The notes: generated from the letters alone by a model not told the origin. Counted from the first letter of the stretch, positions 38,126-45,042 are shown. The stretch: DNA of 64,000 bases from Alphaproteobacteria bacterium (GCA_038102935.1 JAYNYG010000006.1:38748-102747); one strand, 5' to 3'. Program-made: numbers and translations.

Positions 38126-41050
38126 CTAAGCCGCCCGAACCCGGCAGAGCAGCGATTTCAAGTTCGTTTGCTCAGAGATCGGGCAGCGTTGATGTTTATC
38201 CGTCAGGTCATTGACGGGCCGCCAAGGATTGAATGGCTGCCGTTCGCCCCAGCCAATGGGCATGAAGATCGCGCGTTCGCGGATACCGTTCGTGATCCAG
38301 GCGCGAGCGTCCGCTTCGCCGTGGGCGGTCTCGACGGTTACGCGAGCGCCATCGGTGATGCCAAGGCGTTTGGCGGTTGAAGGATGCATCTGGGCATAGA
38401 GGTCCGGCCACATTTCCTGGGCCTGCCAGGAGTAATGCGTCCAGGAATGGAAATGAGGAGCGGGCGCGCGGCCTGTCACCAATTCCATGTCAAAGCCTTG
38501 GGCGCGGAGGTCTGCCGCGGGTTGTGCGTCTTCCGGCGGAATGATCCGCGCGCGGGAGGCATAGGCGGCGCCGTTCAGGAATGGGCTTTTAATGCCTTCC
38601 GTCCAATCGGGGTCCAGCATTTCCAGATGCGCCATGTCGAACAGGCTTTCCCTCTCGCTGTAGAATTCCGGCAGCGCTGACAGGCCGTAGCCCTTGAACT
38701 TGGCGTCCATTTCTTCAGTGAAGAATTCTAGCTTGCCGCTCTGGGAAGGGAAACGGTGGCCTTCCGGCTTGCCGGGGGCGGTGGAGCCTTCCAGGTAAAG
38801 CGTGTTCAGCTCTTCCGCTTCCTCTGACGCGACCGGGAAGCGAACCCAACGATAGGGCCTGGAATGCAGGCGCTTTTGAGTGACGCCGCGCATCTGGACA
38901 TGGTCGATCATCGCTTCATCCCAGAAGCGCGATGAGTCTTTCCATTGCTCTTTCATCACATCGCCGTAGCCGAACCGCTTGCCAAGTTCGATCCAAATCC
39001 AACCGTCCGGTTTAGCGACGCCTGGCGGATCGATCATTTTGTCGATCCACACAACGCGTCGGTCTTCACAGGCGCGTCCAACTTCGCCTTTCTCGATGCC
39101 TGTAGCGGCGGGCAGTACGTAATCAGCGTAAGCGCTGGTTTCATTCGGGAAGATGTCGATATGGACCAGCAGGTCGAGCGCATTGATGCCGTCGCGGGTT
39201 TCGGCTTGGTCCGGCCAGAGCGACATCGGGTTGTTACAGGCGATCAAGGCCTTGAGCGCATATGGTTGGGCAGTGCGCATCGCGTCGACCCACCCGGTTG
39301 GACTTGTGCGGACGCGGGGTTTGTTCAGCGGTGCGATCCTGTCCGCTGGTGCGTTGGCTTCGGCGGGAACGGATGCTGACATGTTGAAGTAGGCCCCGCC
39401 GCGCCGACCCCAATTCCCTGTGATCGCCGCCACAAACATAATGGCACGGTTGGACTGCACCGAGTTCACATGCTGGTTGATGCCACGGCTGCCGAAGATA
39501 ACGCAGCCATCGGCTTGCGCGATTTCTTCCGCCAGGCCCTTGATCGCTTCAACGGAAAGGTCGGTGATGGGGGCGGCCCACTCCGGCGTGTAGCCCATGA
39601 CGCTGATGAAATCGCGCCATTCTTTCCAGCCTGTCACCCAGTTTTCGCAGAAATCAGAATCATGTAAATTTTCGGCAAATATGTGCTGGGCGATGGCCAG
39701 CGACAGCGCCATGTCGCCGCCTGGGCGGATGGGCAAATGCAGATCCGATTTAGACGCCGTGACCGTCATCCTCGGATCAATCGTTATCATCCGCGCGCGG
39801 TTTTTGAGCCGCCAATCGTTGATCATGCCGAAATGGACAGGCCGCGTTTCCGCCTGATTGTCGCCCAAGTAGATGTAGAGTTCGGCTGAACCCAGGTCTT
39901 CCTCAGTATAGCTATTGCCGCTGCCACCAGCGCCCTGGATCATGTTGTATGCGACGTTTTTACCGAAGGAGCAGTACGGCTCCGTCGTTTCAAAGTTCGG
40001 CGTGCCCCAAAGCTGGCGGAACAGGCGGATATAGCCCTTGTTCGTCAGCGTGCCGGTGCGTGTTCCAGAGAAAATGGCCAGTGCTTCCGGCCCAAAATCT
40101 TCGCGGATGGCGCTCAGCTTCTCGGCGATCTCGTCCAGCGCCTGATCCCAGGAGATCGGCTCAAACACATTCTCGCCGCGCTTACCGACGCGTTTTAGCG
40201 GTTGGGTCAGGCGTTCCTTGGAATTGTAGAGCTGCAACGAGAATTGCGACTTCGGGCAAACCCGACCTTCCAGCATCGGGTCCGCTTCGTTGCCCGTTAC
40301 TCTTACGAGCTTATCGCCCTTGAAATGGAAGTTCGTAGTGCAGCAATTGAAGCAAATATTGCAACCGCCTGGCTCGACCCTGTCCGCCAAGCGTTCTTCG
40401 CGGGGCAGGCCAAAGGGGAAGGCCGTCGCGGTCTCTGGATCAGGTCTGCCATCGTCCGAAACGGCTGGCGTGGACTGCTCGAATACATCAAAGGCAGAAG
40501 CGTCGCGGATGATCCGGTCGAGGTAGATCGTTGCAGGCGCCAAAAGGTAGGGATCATTGTCGACGGCTTTCCGTCCTTCGGCTTCTGCCCCCGCCAGCAT
40601 CTCATCACGTTCACCGAACGTAATCGCCTTGCCAGGGCATACACTGGCGCAAGCGGTTGTGGCCGCACCGTCAGCCCTCCGATCCTGGCAGAGATCGCAT
40701 TTCACGGCATGATGGCCGCCAGCGTCATAGCCCATGGCGCCATAAGGGCAGGCGGCGACGCACTCGCCGCAACCAACGCAGCTTTCCTCCATTACGGAGA
40801 CGATGCCGGTTTCAAGGTCTTTGCGGATGGCTTTGGGCTCAACCGGGCAGGCGCGGAGACAGGCCGGGCGTTCGCAGTGTTGGCAGGCGAGCTTTAGGAA
40901 ATCGAGCGTCGGGCCATTGTCGCCACCGAGCCATACGACGCGGTTACGGCGTTCGCCAGGGCCAAGGCCGTGCTCTGCCTTGCATGCCGCCTCGCAGCTC
41001 TTGCAGCCAATGCAGCGTTCCAAATCGATCATCAATGCGAGACGGGACAT
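38126..41050 (-). CDS. Fused 4x[4Fe-4S] ferredoxin (DmsB/PsrB-like) + bis-PGD molybdopterin oxidoreductase
   Basis: 974 aa; N-terminal 16-Cys ferredoxin (CIGCKSCEAAC, CQHC..C..CP, CVGCGECVAACP, KCDLC..C..CP); FS0 C230-x2-C233-x3-C237-x27-C265 with K267; GTPNFETTEPYC(360)SFGK; C-terminal Molydop_binding region; no Tat signal. Confidence 0.92.
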   Translation of the reverse strand: MSRLALMIDLERCIGCKSCEAACKAEHGLGPGERRNRVVWLGGDNGPTLDFLKLACQHCERPACLRACPVEPKAIRKDLETGIVSVMEESCVGCGECVAACPYGAMGYDAGGHHAVKCDLCQDRRADGAATTACASVCPGKAITFGERDEMLAGAEAEGRKAVDNDPYLLAPATIYLDRIIRDASAFDVFEQSTPAVSDDGRPDPETATAFPFGLPREERLADRVEPGGCNICFNCCTTNFHFKGDKLVRVTGNEADPMLEGRVCPKSQFSLQLYNSKERLTQPLKRVGKRGENVFEPISWDQALDEIAEKLSAIREDFGPEALAIFSGTRTGTLTNKGYIRLFRQLWGTPNFETTEPYCSFGKNVAYNMIQGAGGSGNSYTEEDLGSAELYIYLGDNQAETRPVHFGMINDWRLKNRARMITIDPRMTVTASKSDLHLPIRPGGDMALSLAIAQHIFAENLHDSDFCENWVTGWKEWRDFISVMGYTPEWAAPITDLSVEAIKGLAEEIAQADGCVIFGSRGINQHVNSVQSNRAIMFVAAITGNWGRRGGAYFNMSASVPAEANAPADRIAPLNKPRVRTSPTGWVDAMRTAQPYALKALIACNNPMSLWPDQAETRDGINALDLLVHIDIFPNETSAYADYVLPAATGIEKGEVGRACEDRRVVWIDKMIDPPGVAKPDGWIWIELGKRFGYGDVMKEQWKDSSRFWDEAMIDHVQMRGVTQKRLHSRPYRWVRFPVASEEAEELNTLYLEGSTAPGKPEGHRFPSQSGKLEFFTEEMDAKFKGYGLSALPEFYSERESLFDMAHLEMLDPDWTEGIKSPFLNGAAYASRARIIPPEDAQPAADLRAQGFDMELVTGRAPAPHFHSWTHYSWQAQEMWPDLYAQMHPSTAKRLGITDGARVTVETAHGEADARAWITNGIRERAIFMPIGWGERQPFNPWRPVNDLTDKHQRCPISEQTNLKSLLCRVRAA

Positions 41051-41056
41051 GACGCT

Positions 41057-41854
41057 CTAAAAATCCCAAGCTGCGAAATGGAGCCAGTAAATATCGCCGC
41101 CGTCAGAGGCATATCCAGCAAACACCATGACGATAACGATATGCGCGAACAGGCCCCCGACGAACGCCAATGCCGCCAGCCGGTGCAGCAAGCGCCAGCG
41201 GGCTTGGATGGGAGGAAGCGCCGCTGCAGCGCCAACGATATGGCTCTCTTCTGCGGCAAGGCGCACATACTGCAACGTTAGCATCGGCGTTCGCAGCCAA
41301 TGGCGGAATTGCGGCGAGAACAGCGCCTCGCTCGCATCCGGGGCAAGCCGTTCGAGTAGGGCATGTTTTTGCGAGATCAGTTCCGCCAGCTTCGCCCGTG
41401 TCGCGGGGTCTGGCTTTGCGAACCCAGCCCGCTTCTGGCCAAATGTTTGGGCCATCATCCTCGCGCCCTGAATGCGGGACCAGACGCCGAGACCGATAAG
41501 CAGAAGCAGCAGCGCGAACAGCAGCGCAGGCGGTTTCATAATTCCACTTGCGCCATGGGCGAACACCAGTCCCGTGCCAATGCTCGCCAGCCAGACATGT
41601 GACTTGAACCCAGCTTTGCCAGGCTTGCCCCGCCGCTTTGCAAGCACGGCCACAAATGATCCCAACAGCAAGACAGCGCCTATAGCGGCGGCGGCCTGCA
41701 GCAATGGTCCGCCTGCCAGACCCCATATACCGTTCAAACTGGTCACCAGAATGAGCGTGAATACGCTGGCCGAAAGTATGCAGGCGAGAATTGTAATAAG
41801 GGCGCGATTTGAGAGATCAGCCGGAGTGTTGGTATTGGTCGATTTGGCTCTCAC
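41057..41854 (-). CDS. 5-TM membrane protein, putative di-heme cytochrome b (ferric reductase/MsrQ-like)
   Basis: 265 aa, GTG start overlapping the tauD stop (GTGA); H86-x13-H100 in TM3 and H224-x13-H238 in TM5. Confidence 0.7.
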   Translation of the reverse strand: MRAKSTNTNTPADLSNRALITILACILSASVFTLILVTSLNGIWGLAGGPLLQAAAAIGAVLLLGSFVAVLAKRRGKPGKAGFKSHVWLASIGTGLVFAHGASGIMKPPALLFALLLLLIGLGVWSRIQGARMMAQTFGQKRAGFAKPDPATRAKLAELISQKHALLERLAPDASEALFSPQFRHWLRTPMLTLQYVRLAAEESHIVGAAAALPPIQARWRLLHRLAALAFVGGLFAHIVIVMVFAGYASDGGDIYWLHFAAWDF

Positions 41855-42684
41855 CGGGGCGTATCGCCCTTTAGCGTCACGCGGTGCATGCGCCGGCGCT
41901 TGCCTGGATAGTCATTCACCGCGAAATGCTGTGTGGTACGGTTATCCCATACGGCGACAGCGCCAGCGCTCCAGCGGAACCGGCAGGTAAATTCTGGCCG
42001 CGTGATGTGATCACAAAGAAAATCGATCAGTGGCTTGCTCTCAGCATCCGTCCAACCTTCGAACCGCGCTGTATGGGACCGGTTCAGGTAAAGCGATTTT
42101 CCGCCGGTTTCAGGGTGGGTGCGAACGATGGGATGGCTGTTGATATGCGTTTTGGCGGCCTCATCCGTTTCCTTCATGCCATCCAGCTTCGCCATGGCCG
42201 CAGCCCTGCCGCCTGCATAGCCATGGTCTGAACTGTTGACGCCACGAACGCCCGCGAGCATCGCCTTCATTCCATCTGATAGCGCTTCATAGGCAGCGCC
42301 CGCATTGGCGAACAGCGTGTCGCCGCCTGCTTGTGGCGTTTCCAACGCATAGAGGATGGTGCCAAGTGCAGGTTGCGCCATGTAGCTGGTGTCGGAATGC
42401 CAGCTTCCGCCAAAGTTTTTGGCGTCGCTTTCCTCTTTCAGAATCTCAATAACTTCCGGCGTACCCGGCAAGCCTGCGATGAAGGGGTAGATATCCGGTT
42501 CACCGAACATTCCCGCCAGCCGGACTTGATCTTTTGGCGCCAGGTTCTGGTCGCGGAAAAAGATAACCTTGTGCTCAAGGAAGGCGTCATGCACAGCCAT
42601 CGCATCGCTGTTGGTGAGTTCCTGGCTTAGATCGATGCCAGAAATCTCTGCACCCAATGCGCCCGCTATCGGCTCTATATGCAT
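41851..42684 (-). CDS. TauD/TfdA family dioxygenase
   Basis: 277 aa; LGAEISGIDL, HKVIFFRDQ, WHSD, GGDT, HPIVRTHPETG, WDNRTTQHFA. Confidence 0.94.
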   Translation of the reverse strand: MHIEPIAGALGAEISGIDLSQELTNSDAMAVHDAFLEHKVIFFRDQNLAPKDQVRLAGMFGEPDIYPFIAGLPGTPEVIEILKEESDAKNFGGSWHSDTSYMAQPALGTILYALETPQAGGDTLFANAGAAYEALSDGMKAMLAGVRGVNSSDHGYAGGRAAAMAKLDGMKETDEAAKTHINSHPIVRTHPETGGKSLYLNRSHTARFEGWTDAESKPLIDFLCDHITRPEFTCRFRWSAGAVAVWDNRTTQHFAVNDYPGKRRRMHRVTLKGDTPR

Positions 42685-42702: not shown

Positions 42703-43254
42703 TTAGCGGCGATTCGCTTCTTCGAAGAGCGCCAAATTCTTGTCCACGTCATACGTCTGCTCGGTTAGGTTTTCTGGGTCCCATTCAGAGCGGTGCTCGG
42801 CAAAGAAATCACCGCCATACACGTGAATGGCTCCGGTCAGCCGGTTCAATGGATTGGTGACGGAATGAATGATGTCTGCGCCGAGCGGCGTGACATCGCC
42901 AGCGCCCATGGATTTGGCGCCCGCCGCTTCCAACCCGCAATCCCCGTCTTCAATGCGCCGCCAGAAAATATTGTCTTCGCGGCCCGTATAGATACCGATC
43001 ACCGCCCACATATTATGATTATGCGGCATCAACGTCATGCGCTTGCCCCAAATCAGGTTCAGAATTGTCAGGTCCGGGCGGTGGCAAAGTTTGTTGACCC
43101 CAGCCGCGACGGGCTCACCGATCGTGTTGATCAGCGCCGTCGGGTCAGAAACTGCCCGCTCGACGATAGGGCGGACGGTCTTGTGGGTTGGGTCAGCTTT
43201 GACGGCGGCGGCGCAATCGTCAATGAAGCGGTCCAGATCAAACATTCGGGACAT
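42703..43254 (-). CDS. Cysteine/thiol dioxygenase-like cupin
   Basis: 183 aa; P-H78-N-H80...I-H130-SV.N (3-His triad) and AI-H144-V-Y146-GG outer-sphere motif as in CDO/MDO; true start may be 43245. Confidence 0.78.
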   Translation of the reverse strand: MSRMFDLDRFIDDCAAAVKADPTHKTVRPIVERAVSDPTALINTIGEPVAAGVNKLCHRPDLTILNLIWGKRMTLMPHNHNMWAVIGIYTGREDNIFWRRIEDGDCGLEAAGAKSMGAGDVTPLGADIIHSVTNPLNRLTGAIHVYGGDFFAEHRSEWDPENLTEQTYDVDKNLALFEEANRR

Positions 43255-43340: not shown

Positions 43341-43991
43341 TCATTGCGGCATGGTGCGATAATAGTTCCAGAGCAGTATCGCTGCTGCACCCCGCCACGG
43401 TCGCCATTCATCTGCGATCAAAGAGGCTTCCTTGAAGCTCGGCTTCTCGGCCAAACCACGGATGCGCCCCGCCGCCGCGACGAGCGCGATATCGGCTGCT
43501 GGCCAAACATCGGGCCGACCGAGGGCAAAGATCAAATAGACTTCCGCCGTCCAGCGCCCAATGCCACGCAGGGCCGTCAGTGTTTCGATCGCATCTTCAT
43601 CCGGCATCCGCGCGATGGCGTCAAAATTTAGGGCGCCCGAGACTTCGGCTTCCGCGAGGCCTATCGCGTATTCGGTCTTTCGGCCTGAGAATCCGATTGA
43701 CCGGGCGCCATCATAGCCAAGCTCCAAGAATGCGGGCGCGGTTACGGGCGCGCCCGTCTTGGCTTCTATCCGCCCCCATACTGTACGCGCTGCAGCGGCT
43801 GAAATTTGCTGCGCGCACACGGCCCGCAGCAATGTCGGAAACCCAGGGTCCCGCAGTGCAATTGGCGGCACGCCTGCTTCATTGATGATTGCCGCCATGC
43901 CAGGGTCCCGTGCGGCTAGTTCCCGCACGCCTTTGCGGAAGCGACGAACGGCGCCTTCAGGCGAAATGGCTCTAACGGTCTTTTGCGGCAT
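43341..43991 (-). CDS. alkA: DNA-3-methyladenine glycosylase II family (AlkA-like)
   Basis: 216 aa; QQIS, HhH LRGIGRWTAE, GRPDVWPAAD, WRPWRG. Confidence 0.88.
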   Translation of the reverse strand: MPQKTVRAISPEGAVRRFRKGVRELAARDPGMAAIINEAGVPPIALRDPGFPTLLRAVCAQQISAAAARTVWGRIEAKTGAPVTAPAFLELGYDGARSIGFSGRKTEYAIGLAEAEVSGALNFDAIARMPDEDAIETLTALRGIGRWTAEVYLIFALGRPDVWPAADIALVAAAGRIRGLAEKPSFKEASLIADEWRPWRGAAAILLWNYYRTMPQ

Positions 43992-45042
43992 GGGCCTGAG
44001 TTTGACCCCGAAATACCCAAACCGTCCACACCGCGCTCAGAAAAAGCAGGAGTGCTACGGCCTGATGCAGCGCTGCAAGCGGTATCCAGACCACTGTCAG
44101 AAGCGTCGCAATGCCAAGCATGACCTGAATAATCACCAACAAAGCCATGACGCTGGGTGCGCTGCGCTGCCCACTATCGGCAGGGAGGCTTCGGGCGCGC
44201 AGCCAGAGTGCGATGATAAGCAGACTCGTCAGAATGGCGGCCCAACGGTGATGAAACTGAATCGCGCCAATGCTCTCCAGCCCATTCCGCCACCATGGAC
44301 TGAGCGCAGAATAGTCCGGCGGTAATAAGCGCCCATCCATGAGCGGAAATGTATTGTAGATCATCCCAGCATTGGTCCCGGCGACAAATGCGCCAAGAAT
44401 GATGACGACGAAGAGGACGACCAGAACGCCCCATCCCAGTTTTCGCATCCCGATGGGTGCTGCGATTTGCGGGCGAGGGAGCAAGAAGTCGAGAGCCGTC
44501 CAAACCAGCGCGCCCGCGATCACAAAGGCCATGCCAAGATGGATTGCCAGACGGAAATGACTAACGTCTGGCCTGTCTACCAACCCCGACTTGACCATCC
44601 ACCAACCAATAACGCCTTGGCTGCCCCCGAGCGCCAAAAGCATAAGCATTCGGCCTCTCAGTGCGCGCGGAATCCATCCCTTTATCCAGAAGAACGCTAG
44701 AGGCGCTGCATATGCGAGGCCGATAATCCGGCCCCAGAATCGGTGGACATACTCCCACCAAAAGATCGCCTTGAACTCAGCTAGGGACATCCCGCTGTTG
44801 ATTTTTTGGTATTCGGGCGATGTTTGGTACAGGGCGAAAACGCGCGCCCATTCCTGATCGCTGAAGGGCGGGAGCGTACCAATCAATGGCCGCCACTCGA
44901 CCATCGACAGACCGGATTCGGTGAGCCGCGTGACGCCGCCGATCACTGTCATCGCGCCGACCATCGCCGCCACGATGAGCAGCCATATCCCGATCGTGCG
45001 TGCATGTGGCGTTAGATGCAGTTGGAGCGTTTGCTTGTTCAT
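43972..45042 (-). CDS. ctaA: Heme A synthase (Cox15/CtaA)
   Basis: 356 aa; GGVTRLTESGLS, WWEYVHRFWGR, HFRLAIH, QFHHR, LHQ. Confidence 0.95.
   Translation of the reverse strand: MNKQTLQLHLTPHARTIGIWLLIVAAMVGAMTVIGGVTRLTESGLSMVEWRPLIGTLPPFSDQEWARVFALYQTSPEYQKINSGMSLAEFKAIFWWEYVHRFWGRIIGLAYAAPLAFFWIKGWIPRALRGRMLMLLALGGSQGVIGWWMVKSGLVDRPDVSHFRLAIHLGMAFVIAGALVWTALDFLLPRPQIAAPIGMRKLGWGVLVVLFVVIILGAFVAGTNAGMIYNTFPLMDGRLLPPDYSALSPWWRNGLESIGAIQFHHRWAAILTSLLIIALWLRARSLPADSGQRSAPSVMALLVIIQVMLGIATLLTVVWIPLAALHQAVALLLFLSAVWTVWVFRGQTQAHAAKDR

What the first reader, a model, noticed from the sequence alone, without database searches (positions are those of the whole stretch)
41057..41854. Unannotated-looking membrane protein with a ferric-reductase-type heme b signature as the likely anchor of the Mo enzyme
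Seen: five hydrophobic helices, H86-x13-H100 in TM3, H224-x13-H238 in TM5, and a ~90-aa soluble loop before TM5. Known: NOX/ferric-reductase and MsrQ domains bind two hemes through His pairs in TM3 and TM5 with x13/x12 spacing, whereas DMSO-reductase-family enzymes normally use NrfD/PsrC, DmsC, NarI or FdnI anchors. Inference: a new anchor-catalyst pairing.
Basis: partly seen in the sequence, partly recalled or inferred. Interest (0 to 1): 0.7.

Follow-up and report, generated by a model that had tools for sequence, protein, structure and literature searches.

The report
New two-haem anchor for molybdoenzyme
This gene encodes an unstudied five-helix membrane protein that very probably holds two haems, is a distant relative of the ferric-reductase/NADPH-oxidase membrane domain, and is always encoded next to a cytoplasmic iron-sulfur/molybdenum enzyme, which suggests a new way of wiring such an enzyme to the membrane.

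Summary
Window 41854..41057 (minus strand) encodes a 265-aa protein with five hydrophobic helices, H86-x13-H100 in TM3, H224-x13-H238 in TM5, and a ~90-aa helical insert before TM5.

All four His are invariant in 79 of 79 full-length homologues (37-78% identity). The two His outside the motif are not conserved.

The family is rare. It has 164 clusters among 1.84 billion representative proteins and occurs in 137 of 185,579 species genomes. It passes no Pfam or NCBIfam threshold.

Profile-profile comparison links it specifically to short four-His ferric-reductase-domain (FRD) proteins (probability 45-90%, best P 1.9e-6), with all four His in register. bc1 cytochrome b, which has the same His spacing, NarI and FdnI-type cytochromes score at noise level. 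Foldseek does not confirm the FRD fold.

The gene sits directly upstream of a Tat-less fused ferredoxin/Mo-bisPGD gene in 82 of 83 loci. In the reverse test, 5 of 5 genomes with the enzyme also have the membrane gene.

Loop charges place the insert and one haem on the cytoplasmic side. That fits a two-haem wire between the enzyme's Fe-S chain and a quinone or outer-face acceptor.

Substrate and electron direction are unknown. A SoeABC-like enzyme in the same genomes weakens the sulfite idea.

Verdict: a real new variant of a known kind.

The parts
41057..41854 (-). Gene for the 265-aa five-helix membrane protein, a putative two-haem cytochrome b and divergent FRD-like protein. It starts with GTG, which overlaps the TauD stop codon (GTGA).
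41546..41608 (-). TM3 (about residues 83-103), carrying H86 (41597-41599) and H100 (41555-41557).
   Evidence: Both His are 79/79 invariant.
41105..41197 (-). TM5 (about residues 220-250). It carries W220-R221-x2-H224 (H224 codon 41183-41185) and H238 (41141-41143).
41201..41473 (-). Helical insert between TM4 and TM5 (residues 128-218). It is basic and predicted to be cytoplasmic, and it contains invariant K163, E176 and E203. It is the proposed docking platform for the ferredoxin domain (inferred).
41057..41104 (-). Acidic and aromatic C-terminal tail (residues 251-265) with invariant W257 and the nearly invariant H259 and W263. It is predicted to be periplasmic, next to the outer haem, and is a candidate quinone or acceptor site (inferred).
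38126..41050 (-). Fused ferredoxin (PsrB/DmsB-like, residues 1-175) and Mo-bisPGD catalytic protein (PsrA/PhsA/FdhF-like), 974 aa. It has no Tat leader. Cys360 (39971-39973) aligns with the Mo ligand Cys173 of PsrA. Its ATG lies 6 nt after the stop codon of the membrane gene.
41851..42684 (-). TauD-family 2-oxoglutarate dioxygenase in the same operon. It is linked to the module in only about a third of the loci.
42703..43254 (-). 183-aa protein with no Pfam hit, the first gene of the operon. Another first-reader note calls it a thiol-dioxygenase-like cupin. It is present only in the closest clade.

Best explanation
The protein is the dedicated membrane subunit of the neighbouring cytoplasmic Fe-S/Mo-bisPGD enzyme. 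It is a divergent five-helix offshoot of the ferric-reductase-domain (FRD) superfamily.

It probably binds two b-type haems stacked across the membrane. H86 and H224 would hold the haem near the cytoplasm, and H100 and H238 the haem near the periplasm. The enlarged, basic, helical TM4-TM5 loop lies in the cytoplasm. In NADPH oxidases the equivalent loop contacts the dehydrogenase domain. Here it probably docks the enzyme's N-terminal four-cluster ferredoxin domain, so that electrons pass along Mo, FS0, four [4Fe-4S] clusters, inner haem and outer haem.

My preferred direction (about 50%) is substrate oxidation in the cytoplasm, with electrons delivered to quinone or another acceptor at the outer face. 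The reverse, Nar-like direction (quinol to cytoplasmic reduction) is about 25%.

Shown here: sequence features, conservation, gene linkage and profile similarity. Inferred: haem binding, topology, docking, electron direction and substrate.
For: - The four His are invariant in 79/79 homologues, while the non-motif His vary. They are also kept down to 24% identity.
- A spacing of 14 residues on two helices puts the two ligand pairs about 21 A apart, as in known two-haem bundles (established knowledge).
- Loop charges: loop 2-3 has K+R 3.3 against D+E 0.1, loop 4-5 has 15.1 against 7.6, and the C-terminal tail has 0.5 against 1.8. This gives N-in, C-out.
- The Mo enzyme begins directly with its first Cys cluster and has no Tat leader, here and in homologues.
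- Gene linkage: 82 of 83 loci have the fused gene directly downstream, typically 6-60 nt away. In the reverse test, 5 of 5 genomes match.
- hhalign against short four-His Ferric_reduct proteins gives probability 57-90% with the His in register. The controls score at noise level.
- Sub-threshold Pfam hits fall on DUF4405, Ni_hydr_CYTB, Ferric_reduct and DUF4079. From memory, these belong to one Pfam clan.
- The FRD definition (a four-helix core h2-h5 holding two bis-His haems) comes from PMC12525009 and PMC3591440.
- The catabolic, aerobic gene context favours a dehydrogenase: TauD here, and a TRAP transporter plus a MocR-type regulator in Halomonas pelophila.
Against: - No Pfam or NCBIfam model reaches its threshold.
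- No PDB sequence match was found.
- Foldseek with the AF2 model found only generic helical bundles. A genuine short FRD model of lower confidence still ranked NOX5, STEAP1 and NOX2 at the top, although at non-significant E-values.
- The protein has five TM helices, not six.
- hhalign probability depends on which alignment is used (45-90%).
- Haem binding, contact with the ferredoxin domain and a quinone site are untested.
- Delivering cytoplasmic electrons to a quinone site on the outer face would dissipate membrane potential. The direction is therefore open.
Confidence: 0.65

Rival explanations
1. It is a two-haem cytochrome b anchor that is not homologous to FRD. In this reading it is an independent family, or one closer to DUF4405 or Ni_hydr_CYTB, that converged on H-x13-H in two helices.
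For: Pfam's best weak hits are DUF4405 (16 of 24 members, best E 0.0032) and Ni_hydr_CYTB (6 of 24), not Ferric_reduct (best E 0.24). Foldseek found no FRD structure. The protein has 5 rather than 6 helices and a 90-aa insert that FRD proteins lack.
Against: hhalign scores with Ni_hydr_CYTB (22.4), NarI (17.1) and bc1 cytochrome b (19.5) equal the reversed-profile noise. FRD scores 35-48, with four His, W-R-x2-H and PP in register. Some Pfam-positive FRD short forms also hit DUF4405, so the DUF4405 signal does not argue against FRD.
Confidence: 0.2
2. It works in the Nar-like direction. Quinol is oxidised at the periplasmic face, electrons run inward through the two haems to the cytoplasmic Mo site, and a substrate is reduced there in a redox loop that generates proton-motive force.
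For: A transmembrane two-haem wire joined to a cytoplasmic Mo-bisPGD active site is the NarGHI layout (established knowledge). The closest solved relative of the catalytic domain is a reductase, PsrA. A conserved aromatic/His tail lies at the outer face.
Against: The operon partners here are O2-dependent dioxygenases. The hosts are mostly aerobic marine and freshwater heterotrophs. The neighbourhoods look catabolic, with TRAP transporters and LysR, GntR or MocR regulators. This genome has no NarI and no other sign of anaerobic respiration in the searches made.
Confidence: 0.25
3. It is not a redox protein. The conserved His would bind another metal or be structural, and the protein would be a substrate transporter or an assembly or tethering factor for the Mo enzyme.
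For: No cofactor has been shown. The protein has no significant match to any characterised family.
Against: Four invariant His arranged as two i/i+14 pairs in two transmembrane helices is the classic bis-His two-haem pattern. The partner enzyme ends in a four-cluster ferredoxin domain that needs an electron partner. Five helices with a large helical insert is not a known transporter architecture.
Confidence: 0.07

Closest known systems
Short four-His bacterial ferric-reductase-domain proteins (stand-alone 'bFRE' short forms, Pfam PF01794). An example is the 204-aa protein on contig C60 of the same genome (P0183).
   Same: Both have H-x13-H in TM3 and W-R-x2-H-x13-H in TM5, a PP motif after TM3 and a W-x2-P motif before TM2. 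Both consist of the membrane domain only. hhalign gives probability up to 90%.
   Different: The window protein lacks TM6. It carries a 90-aa helical insert between TM4 and TM5, fails the Pfam threshold, and is strictly linked to a Mo enzyme. The short bFRE family itself is uncharacterised (PMC3591440).
MsrQ (YedZ) with MsrP
   Same: An FRD-type haem b membrane protein serves as the dedicated electron partner of a molybdoenzyme (PMC12525009).
   Different: MsrQ has three of the four His, one haem and an FMN. MsrP is a periplasmic enzyme of the sulfite-oxidase family. Here all four His are present and the partner is a cytoplasmic enzyme of the DMSO-reductase family with a fused ferredoxin.
NADPH oxidase / FRE transmembrane domain (NOX5, NOX2)
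   Same: Both have four His and two stacked haems. A cytoplasmic redox module docks on the cytoplasmic loops, and the topology is the same.
   Different: In NOX the donor module is a covalently fused FAD/NADPH domain and the His spacing is x13/x12. Here the donor or acceptor is a separate Fe-S/Mo protein and the spacing is x13/x13. Foldseek found no similarity.
NarGHI (NarI anchor)
   Same: A cytoplasmic Mo-bisPGD and Fe-S module sits on a five-helix two-haem b subunit that spans the membrane.
   Different: There is no sequence relationship (hhalign score 17, noise). NarI has the opposite orientation (N-out) and a different His spacing (from my own knowledge). NarG and NarH are separate polypeptides.
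PhsABC / FdnGHI (cytochrome b anchors of the Ni_hydr_CYTB type) and PsrABC, SoeABC (NrfD-type anchors)
   Same: The catalytic and ferredoxin modules are the closest relatives of the fused enzyme. Like this enzyme, SoeABC faces the cytoplasm and lacks a Tat leader (PMC10100899).
   Different: Those enzymes have separate A and B subunits and anchors from unrelated families. A SoeABC-like cluster exists separately in this genome (C100:3730-8304).

Membership tests
Ferric reductase domain (Pfam PF01794, FRD superfamily) | Scores above the Pfam gathering threshold (28 bits) | tested here: not met
   The query has no hit. The best E among 24 family members is 0.24. It was not found in the own-genome scan at E <= 0.01.
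Ferric reductase domain (Pfam PF01794, FRD superfamily) | Two bis-His motifs on TM3 and TM5, spaced 13 and 12-13 residues | tested here: met
   H86-x13-H100 and H224-x13-H238 are invariant in 79/79 homologues. Pfam-positive short forms in the same genus also have x13/x13, and long forms have x13/x12.
Ferric reductase domain (Pfam PF01794, FRD superfamily) | Profile-level homology to bona fide members, above controls | tested here: met
   hhalign gives probability 43-90% and scores of 35-48, with the four His in register. Reversed profiles, bc1 cytochrome b, NarI and Ni_hydr_CYTB score 15-22.
Ferric reductase domain (Pfam PF01794, FRD superfamily) | Six transmembrane helices (core h2-h5 plus h1 and h6) | tested here: not met
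   There are five helices. Only a 15-residue tail follows TM5. [quoted passage not shown]
Ferric reductase domain (Pfam PF01794, FRD superfamily) | Fold superposes on NOX5, NOX2 or STEAP | tested here: inconclusive
   Foldseek against the PDB gave no FRD hit in the top 50. A control FRD short-form model ranked 5o0t, 8ucd and 7u8g at the top, but only at E 0.13-1.
Ferric reductase domain (Pfam PF01794, FRD superfamily) | N-in topology, with the His helices running from the cytoplasm to the outside | tested here: met
   Positive-inside charge counts over 79 sequences support it. This is a prediction only.
Ferric reductase domain (Pfam PF01794, FRD superfamily) | Binds b-type haem | not testable with these tools
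   This needs spectroscopy.
MsrQ/YedZ | Three conserved His (one haem) plus an FMN site, with a periplasmic MsrP partner | tested here: not met
   All four His are present, and the partner is a cytoplasmic bis-PGD enzyme. The MsrQ definition comes from PMC12525009 and PMC3591440.
DUF4405 (PF14358) | Scores above the gathering threshold (26.7 bits) | tested here: not met
   The query scores 13.4 bits (E 0.11). Sixteen of 24 members match weakly, with a best E of 0.0032, and only over TM5.
Ni_hydr_CYTB (PF01292: FdnI, HyaC, PhsC, CybB) | Pfam threshold, or profile similarity above noise | tested here: not met
   Six of 24 members match weakly (best E 0.0047). The hhalign score of 22.4 compares with 18.7 for the reversed control.
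NarI (PF02665) | Pfam threshold or profile similarity; His in TM2 and TM5; N-out topology | tested here: not met
   There is no hit in the own genome. The hhalign score is 17.1. The predicted topology is N-in.
Cytochrome b of bc1/b6f (PF00033) | Profile similarity | tested here: not met
   The hhalign score is 19.5 (P 0.06), even though the H-x13-H x2 pattern is identical.

The most novel reading that the evidence does not exclude
The module keeps the ancestral FRD job of exporting electrons. In this reading a cytoplasmic molybdenum dehydrogenase replaces the NADPH/FAD domain of NOX/FRE enzymes. It drives electrons through two haems to an acceptor at the outer face of the membrane (a periplasmic protein, a metal or O2) rather than into the quinone pool. 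This would be a respiratory or redox-export architecture not described before. In this operon it could serve oxidation of an S(IV) compound, such as a sulfinate or sulfite made by the neighbouring dioxygenases.
Probability: 0.12. Interest if true: 0.8.

Novelty: new variant of a known kind. Interest (0 to 1): 0.6.

Why it matters
Membrane anchors decide how a molybdoenzyme couples to the respiratory chain and whether it conserves or consumes proton-motive force. The anchors recognised for the DMSO-reductase family are the NrfD type, DmsC, NarI, the FdnI/PhsC type and c-type cytochromes.

An FRD-like two-haem protein paired obligatorily with a Tat-less fused ferredoxin-Mo enzyme would add a new anchor type. 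It would also give a function to a branch of the largely uncharacterised bacterial FRD superfamily.

The module occurs in uncultured marine Alphaproteobacteria (SAR116-type and Rhodospirillales) and in Burkholderiales. It is often next to TauD-type sulfonate dioxygenases, so it may be an unrecognised step of organosulfur turnover.

A cultured carrier, Halomonas pelophila CS7, makes it testable.

Tried and rejected
- **PDB sequence search.** A search with the family profile found nothing relevant.
- **Foldseek.** The AF2 model gave only generic helical bundles. I ran a control with a genuine short FRD protein to judge sensitivity. It ranked NOX5, STEAP1 and NOX2 first, but without significance. 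The negative result therefore counts only weakly against the FRD reading.
- **The search for related loci.** The closer alignment A1 worked.
- **NarI, FdnI/PhsC-type and bc1 cytochrome b relationships.** All were rejected because their hhalign scores were at noise level.
- **Formate dehydrogenase identity for the Mo enzyme.** I rejected this because the residue after the Mo-ligand Cys360 is Ser. As I recall, FDHs have His there.
- **The enzyme as the cell's sulfite dehydrogenase, replacing SoeABC.** This is weakened. A Tat-less three-subunit SoeABC-like cluster co-exists with the module in 7 of 9 genomes checked. The genome also has about 27 TauD paralogues, so TauD adjacency is less specific than it looks. 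NCBIfam has no SoeA model, so the C100 cluster is named from its architecture only.
- **Conserved neighbours beyond the pair.** Clustering of neighbouring ORFs found none apart from TauD homologues in about a third of the loci.
- **A script error, corrected.** My first conservation script picked the Mo enzyme instead of the membrane protein. It was corrected.

Full report
**What is there**

The finding's coordinates hold an ORF on the minus strand, 41854..41057. It starts with GTG and encodes 265 aa. His residues lie at 86, 100, 164, 185, 205, 224, 238 and 259.

Hydropathy and an AlphaFold2 model (24-sequence alignment, mean pLDDT 79, pTM 0.66) give five membrane helices at roughly 16-39, 50-74, 79-104, 110-127 and 220-250. 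Between TM4 and TM5 lies a helical insert. Its helices are extensions of TM4 and TM5 plus 150-170 and 183-207. This insert is the most confident part of the model, with pLDDT above 90.

**Operon**

Four minus-strand genes are tightly packed:
- a 183-aa protein with no Pfam hit (43254..42703);
- a TauD-family dioxygenase (42684..41851; Pfam E 2.5e-64);
- the membrane protein;
- a 974-aa fusion (41050..38126) of a four-cluster ferredoxin domain of the PsrB/DmsB/NrfC type with a Mo-bisPGD catalytic domain.

The TauD stop codon and the membrane gene's start codon overlap (GTGA). The ATG of the Mo gene follows the membrane gene's stop codon after 6 nt.

The fusion protein begins directly with its first Cys motif (MSRLALMIDLERCIGCKSC), so it has no Tat leader and should stay in the cytoplasm. 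Its closest solved relatives are polysulfide/thiosulfate reductase PsrA (E 7e-61) and FdhF-type enzymes. The ferredoxin part matches PsrB. Cys360 aligns with PsrA Cys173, which I recall is the Mo ligand.

**Conservation and rarity**

The membrane protein has no Pfam or NCBIfam assignment, and sources call it 'hypothetical'.

A full HMM search of 1.84 billion representative proteins found 164 clusters, many of them fragments. A scan of one genome per species found relatives in 137 of 185,579 species. Most are uncultured Alphaproteobacteria (Rhodospirillales, SAR116, Hyphomicrobiaceae), plus Burkholderiales and a few Gammaproteobacteria. One carrier is cultured: Halomonas pelophila CS7.

In 79 full-length members taken from those genomes (37-78% identical to the query):
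- H86, H100, H224 and H238 are invariant (79/79);
- H164 and H205 are not conserved;
- R127, R221, K73, K163, E176, E203, P109 and W257 are also invariant;
- H185 (78/79) and H259 (75/79) are nearly invariant.

Metagenomic members down to 24% identity keep the four His, apart from one chimeric sequence and one H238Q.

**Linkage to the Mo enzyme**

tblastn of the window's proteins against 83 loci shows the fused Fe-S/Mo gene directly downstream on the same strand in 82 of them, typically 6-60 nt away. In one of these loci an ogt-like ORF is inserted between the two genes. The remaining locus is an odd short contig.

The pairing holds where nothing else in the neighbourhood is shared, for example LysR-membrane-Mo in L003.

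In the reverse test, only 5 of 401 evenly sampled genomes of the class carry the fused enzyme, and all 5 have the membrane gene upstream.

The Mo enzyme is more conserved (54-95% identity) than the membrane protein (37-78%). TauD homologues sit upstream in about a third of the loci. The 183-aa protein is present only in the closest clade.

**Topology**

Averaged over 79 sequences, charges are distributed as follows:

| Segment | K+R | D+E |
|---|---|---|
| Loop TM2-TM3 | 3.3 | 0.1 |
| TM4-TM5 insert | 15.1 | 7.6 |
| C-terminal tail | 0.5 | 1.8 |

By the positive-inside rule the protein is N-in and C-out. TM3 and TM5 both run from the cytoplasm outward. H86/H224 then lie near the cytoplasmic face and H100/H238 near the periplasmic face. 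This matches two bis-His haems stacked across the membrane, with the large insert facing the cytoplasmic Mo enzyme. These points are inferences from sequence.

**Which family**

Individual members give only sub-threshold Pfam hits:
- DUF4405: 16 of 24 members, best E 0.0032;
- Ni_hydr_CYTB: 6 members;
- Ferric_reduct: 6 members, best E 0.24;
- DUF4079: 2 members.

I built comparison profiles from related genomes and from a database search and ran hhalign.

Against short stand-alone Ferric_reduct proteins that pass Pfam and have four His (about 205 aa; one is encoded in this same genome), the family scores 35-48. The probability is 45-90% depending on the query alignment, with a best P of 1.9e-6. 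H86, H100, H224 and H238 align to H76, H90, H147 and H161. The motifs W-R-x2-H before TM5, PP after TM3 and W-x2-P before TM2 are shared.

Controls score at noise level:

| Comparison | hhalign score |
|---|---|
| Reversed FRD profile | 19.5 |
| Ni_hydr_CYTB | 22.4 |
| NarI | 17.1 |
| bc1 cytochrome b | 19.5 |

bc1 cytochrome b has the same H-x13-H x2 pattern, so the FRD signal is not produced by the His pattern alone.

The FRD literature defines the domain as six helices, whose h2-h5 core holds two bis-His haems, with h1 and h6 differing between proteins. MsrQ and STEAP have lost one His and one haem, and few short bacterial forms keep all four His (PMC12525009; PMC3591440). The window protein fits the four-His type, lacks h6 and has an expanded cytoplasmic TM4-TM5 loop.

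Evidence against the FRD assignment:
- Foldseek with the model found no FRD structure.
- A control model of a genuine short FRD protein ranked NOX5, STEAP1 and NOX2 first, but at non-significant E-values. The fold test is therefore inconclusive and leans slightly negative.

**Mechanism**

The most economical reading is a two-haem transmembrane wire that serves as the dedicated partner of the Fe-S/Mo enzyme. The insert would act as the docking surface. The conserved aromatic/His C-terminal tail at the outer face would be a candidate quinone or acceptor site.

The direction of electron flow is open. The operon partners are O2-dependent dioxygenases. Elsewhere the neighbourhood looks catabolic: a TRAP transporter and a MocR-type regulator in Halomonas, ComA in one Rhodospirillaceae locus, and LysR or GntR regulators. 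This favours a dehydrogenase that feeds electrons outward. The NarGHI-like layout keeps a quinol-driven cytoplasmic reductase possible.

Sulfite is an attractive substrate because TauD enzymes release it. Two results weaken that idea:
- This genome has about 27 TauD paralogues.
- It also has a separate Tat-less Mo/Fe-S/NrfD-like cluster with SoeABC architecture (C100:3730-8304). That enzyme co-exists with the module in 7 of 9 genomes checked, and the two exceptions are incomplete assemblies.

The module is therefore not simply a replacement for Soe.

**Comparison and novelty**

Two-haem b anchors for Mo-bisPGD enzymes exist (NarI, FdnI, and PhsC from my own knowledge). An FRD protein serving a molybdoenzyme also exists (MsrQ-MsrP). 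What appears to be new is three things together:
- this protein family;
- its strict pairing with a B-A fused, cytoplasm-facing enzyme of the DMSO-reductase family;
- the enlarged cytoplasmic loop.

Full-text searches and two surveys of the family did not describe it. I treat that as a lead, not as support.

I rate it a new variant of a known kind. No cofactor, interaction or substrate has been shown.

Noticed in passing
genome contig C100:3730-8304 (outside the window): A Tat-less three-gene cluster with SoeABC-like architecture: a Mo subunit (959 aa), an Fe-S subunit (240 aa) and a 311-aa membrane subunit with a weak NrfD match. It co-exists with the FRD-like/Mo module in 7 of 9 genomes checked.
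   Followed up: partly
whole genome; one copy at window 41851-42684: The genome holds about 27 TauD-family dioxygenase paralogues, an unusually large set. TauD adjacency alone therefore says little about the substrate.
   Followed up: no
genome contig C60:13130-13456 (locus L112:1357-1971): A stand-alone 204-aa Ferric_reduct protein with all four haem His (H76, H90, H147, H161). It belongs to a very large uncharacterised family, with at least 6,929 database hits at E <= 1e-5. It sits beside a 269-aa ORF with no Pfam hit and a cytochrome P450 fragment.
   Followed up: partly
L070:2643-11325 (Halomonas pelophila CS7): A cultured carrier of the module. TRAP transporter genes dctQ, dctP and dctM lie directly upstream, and a MocR-type GntR/aminotransferase regulator lies downstream. 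This suggests an imported organic anion as substrate and offers a tractable experimental system.
   Followed up: partly
L014:6804-7322 and L012:6778-7317: In two related MAGs a 172-179-aa ORF is inserted between the membrane gene and the Mo gene. By its PCHRV motif it looks like an O6-methylguanine-DNA methyltransferase. In L012 no Mo gene was found in the remaining 0.8 kb of the contig.
   Followed up: no
L035:576-1388: A ComA ((2R)-phospho-3-sulfolactate synthase) homologue lies about 5 kb from the module in a Rhodospirillaceae MAG, together with a TauD-like gene and LysR and GntR regulators. This is another hint of sulfonate or sulfite chemistry.
   Followed up: no
window 43972-45042 and 43341-43991: A haem A synthase (COX15/CtaA-like) gene and a HhH-GPD glycosylase gene lie just upstream of the operon. 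The same synteny occurs in L001, whose membrane protein is 58% identical. This probably reflects shared ancestry rather than function.
   Followed up: no
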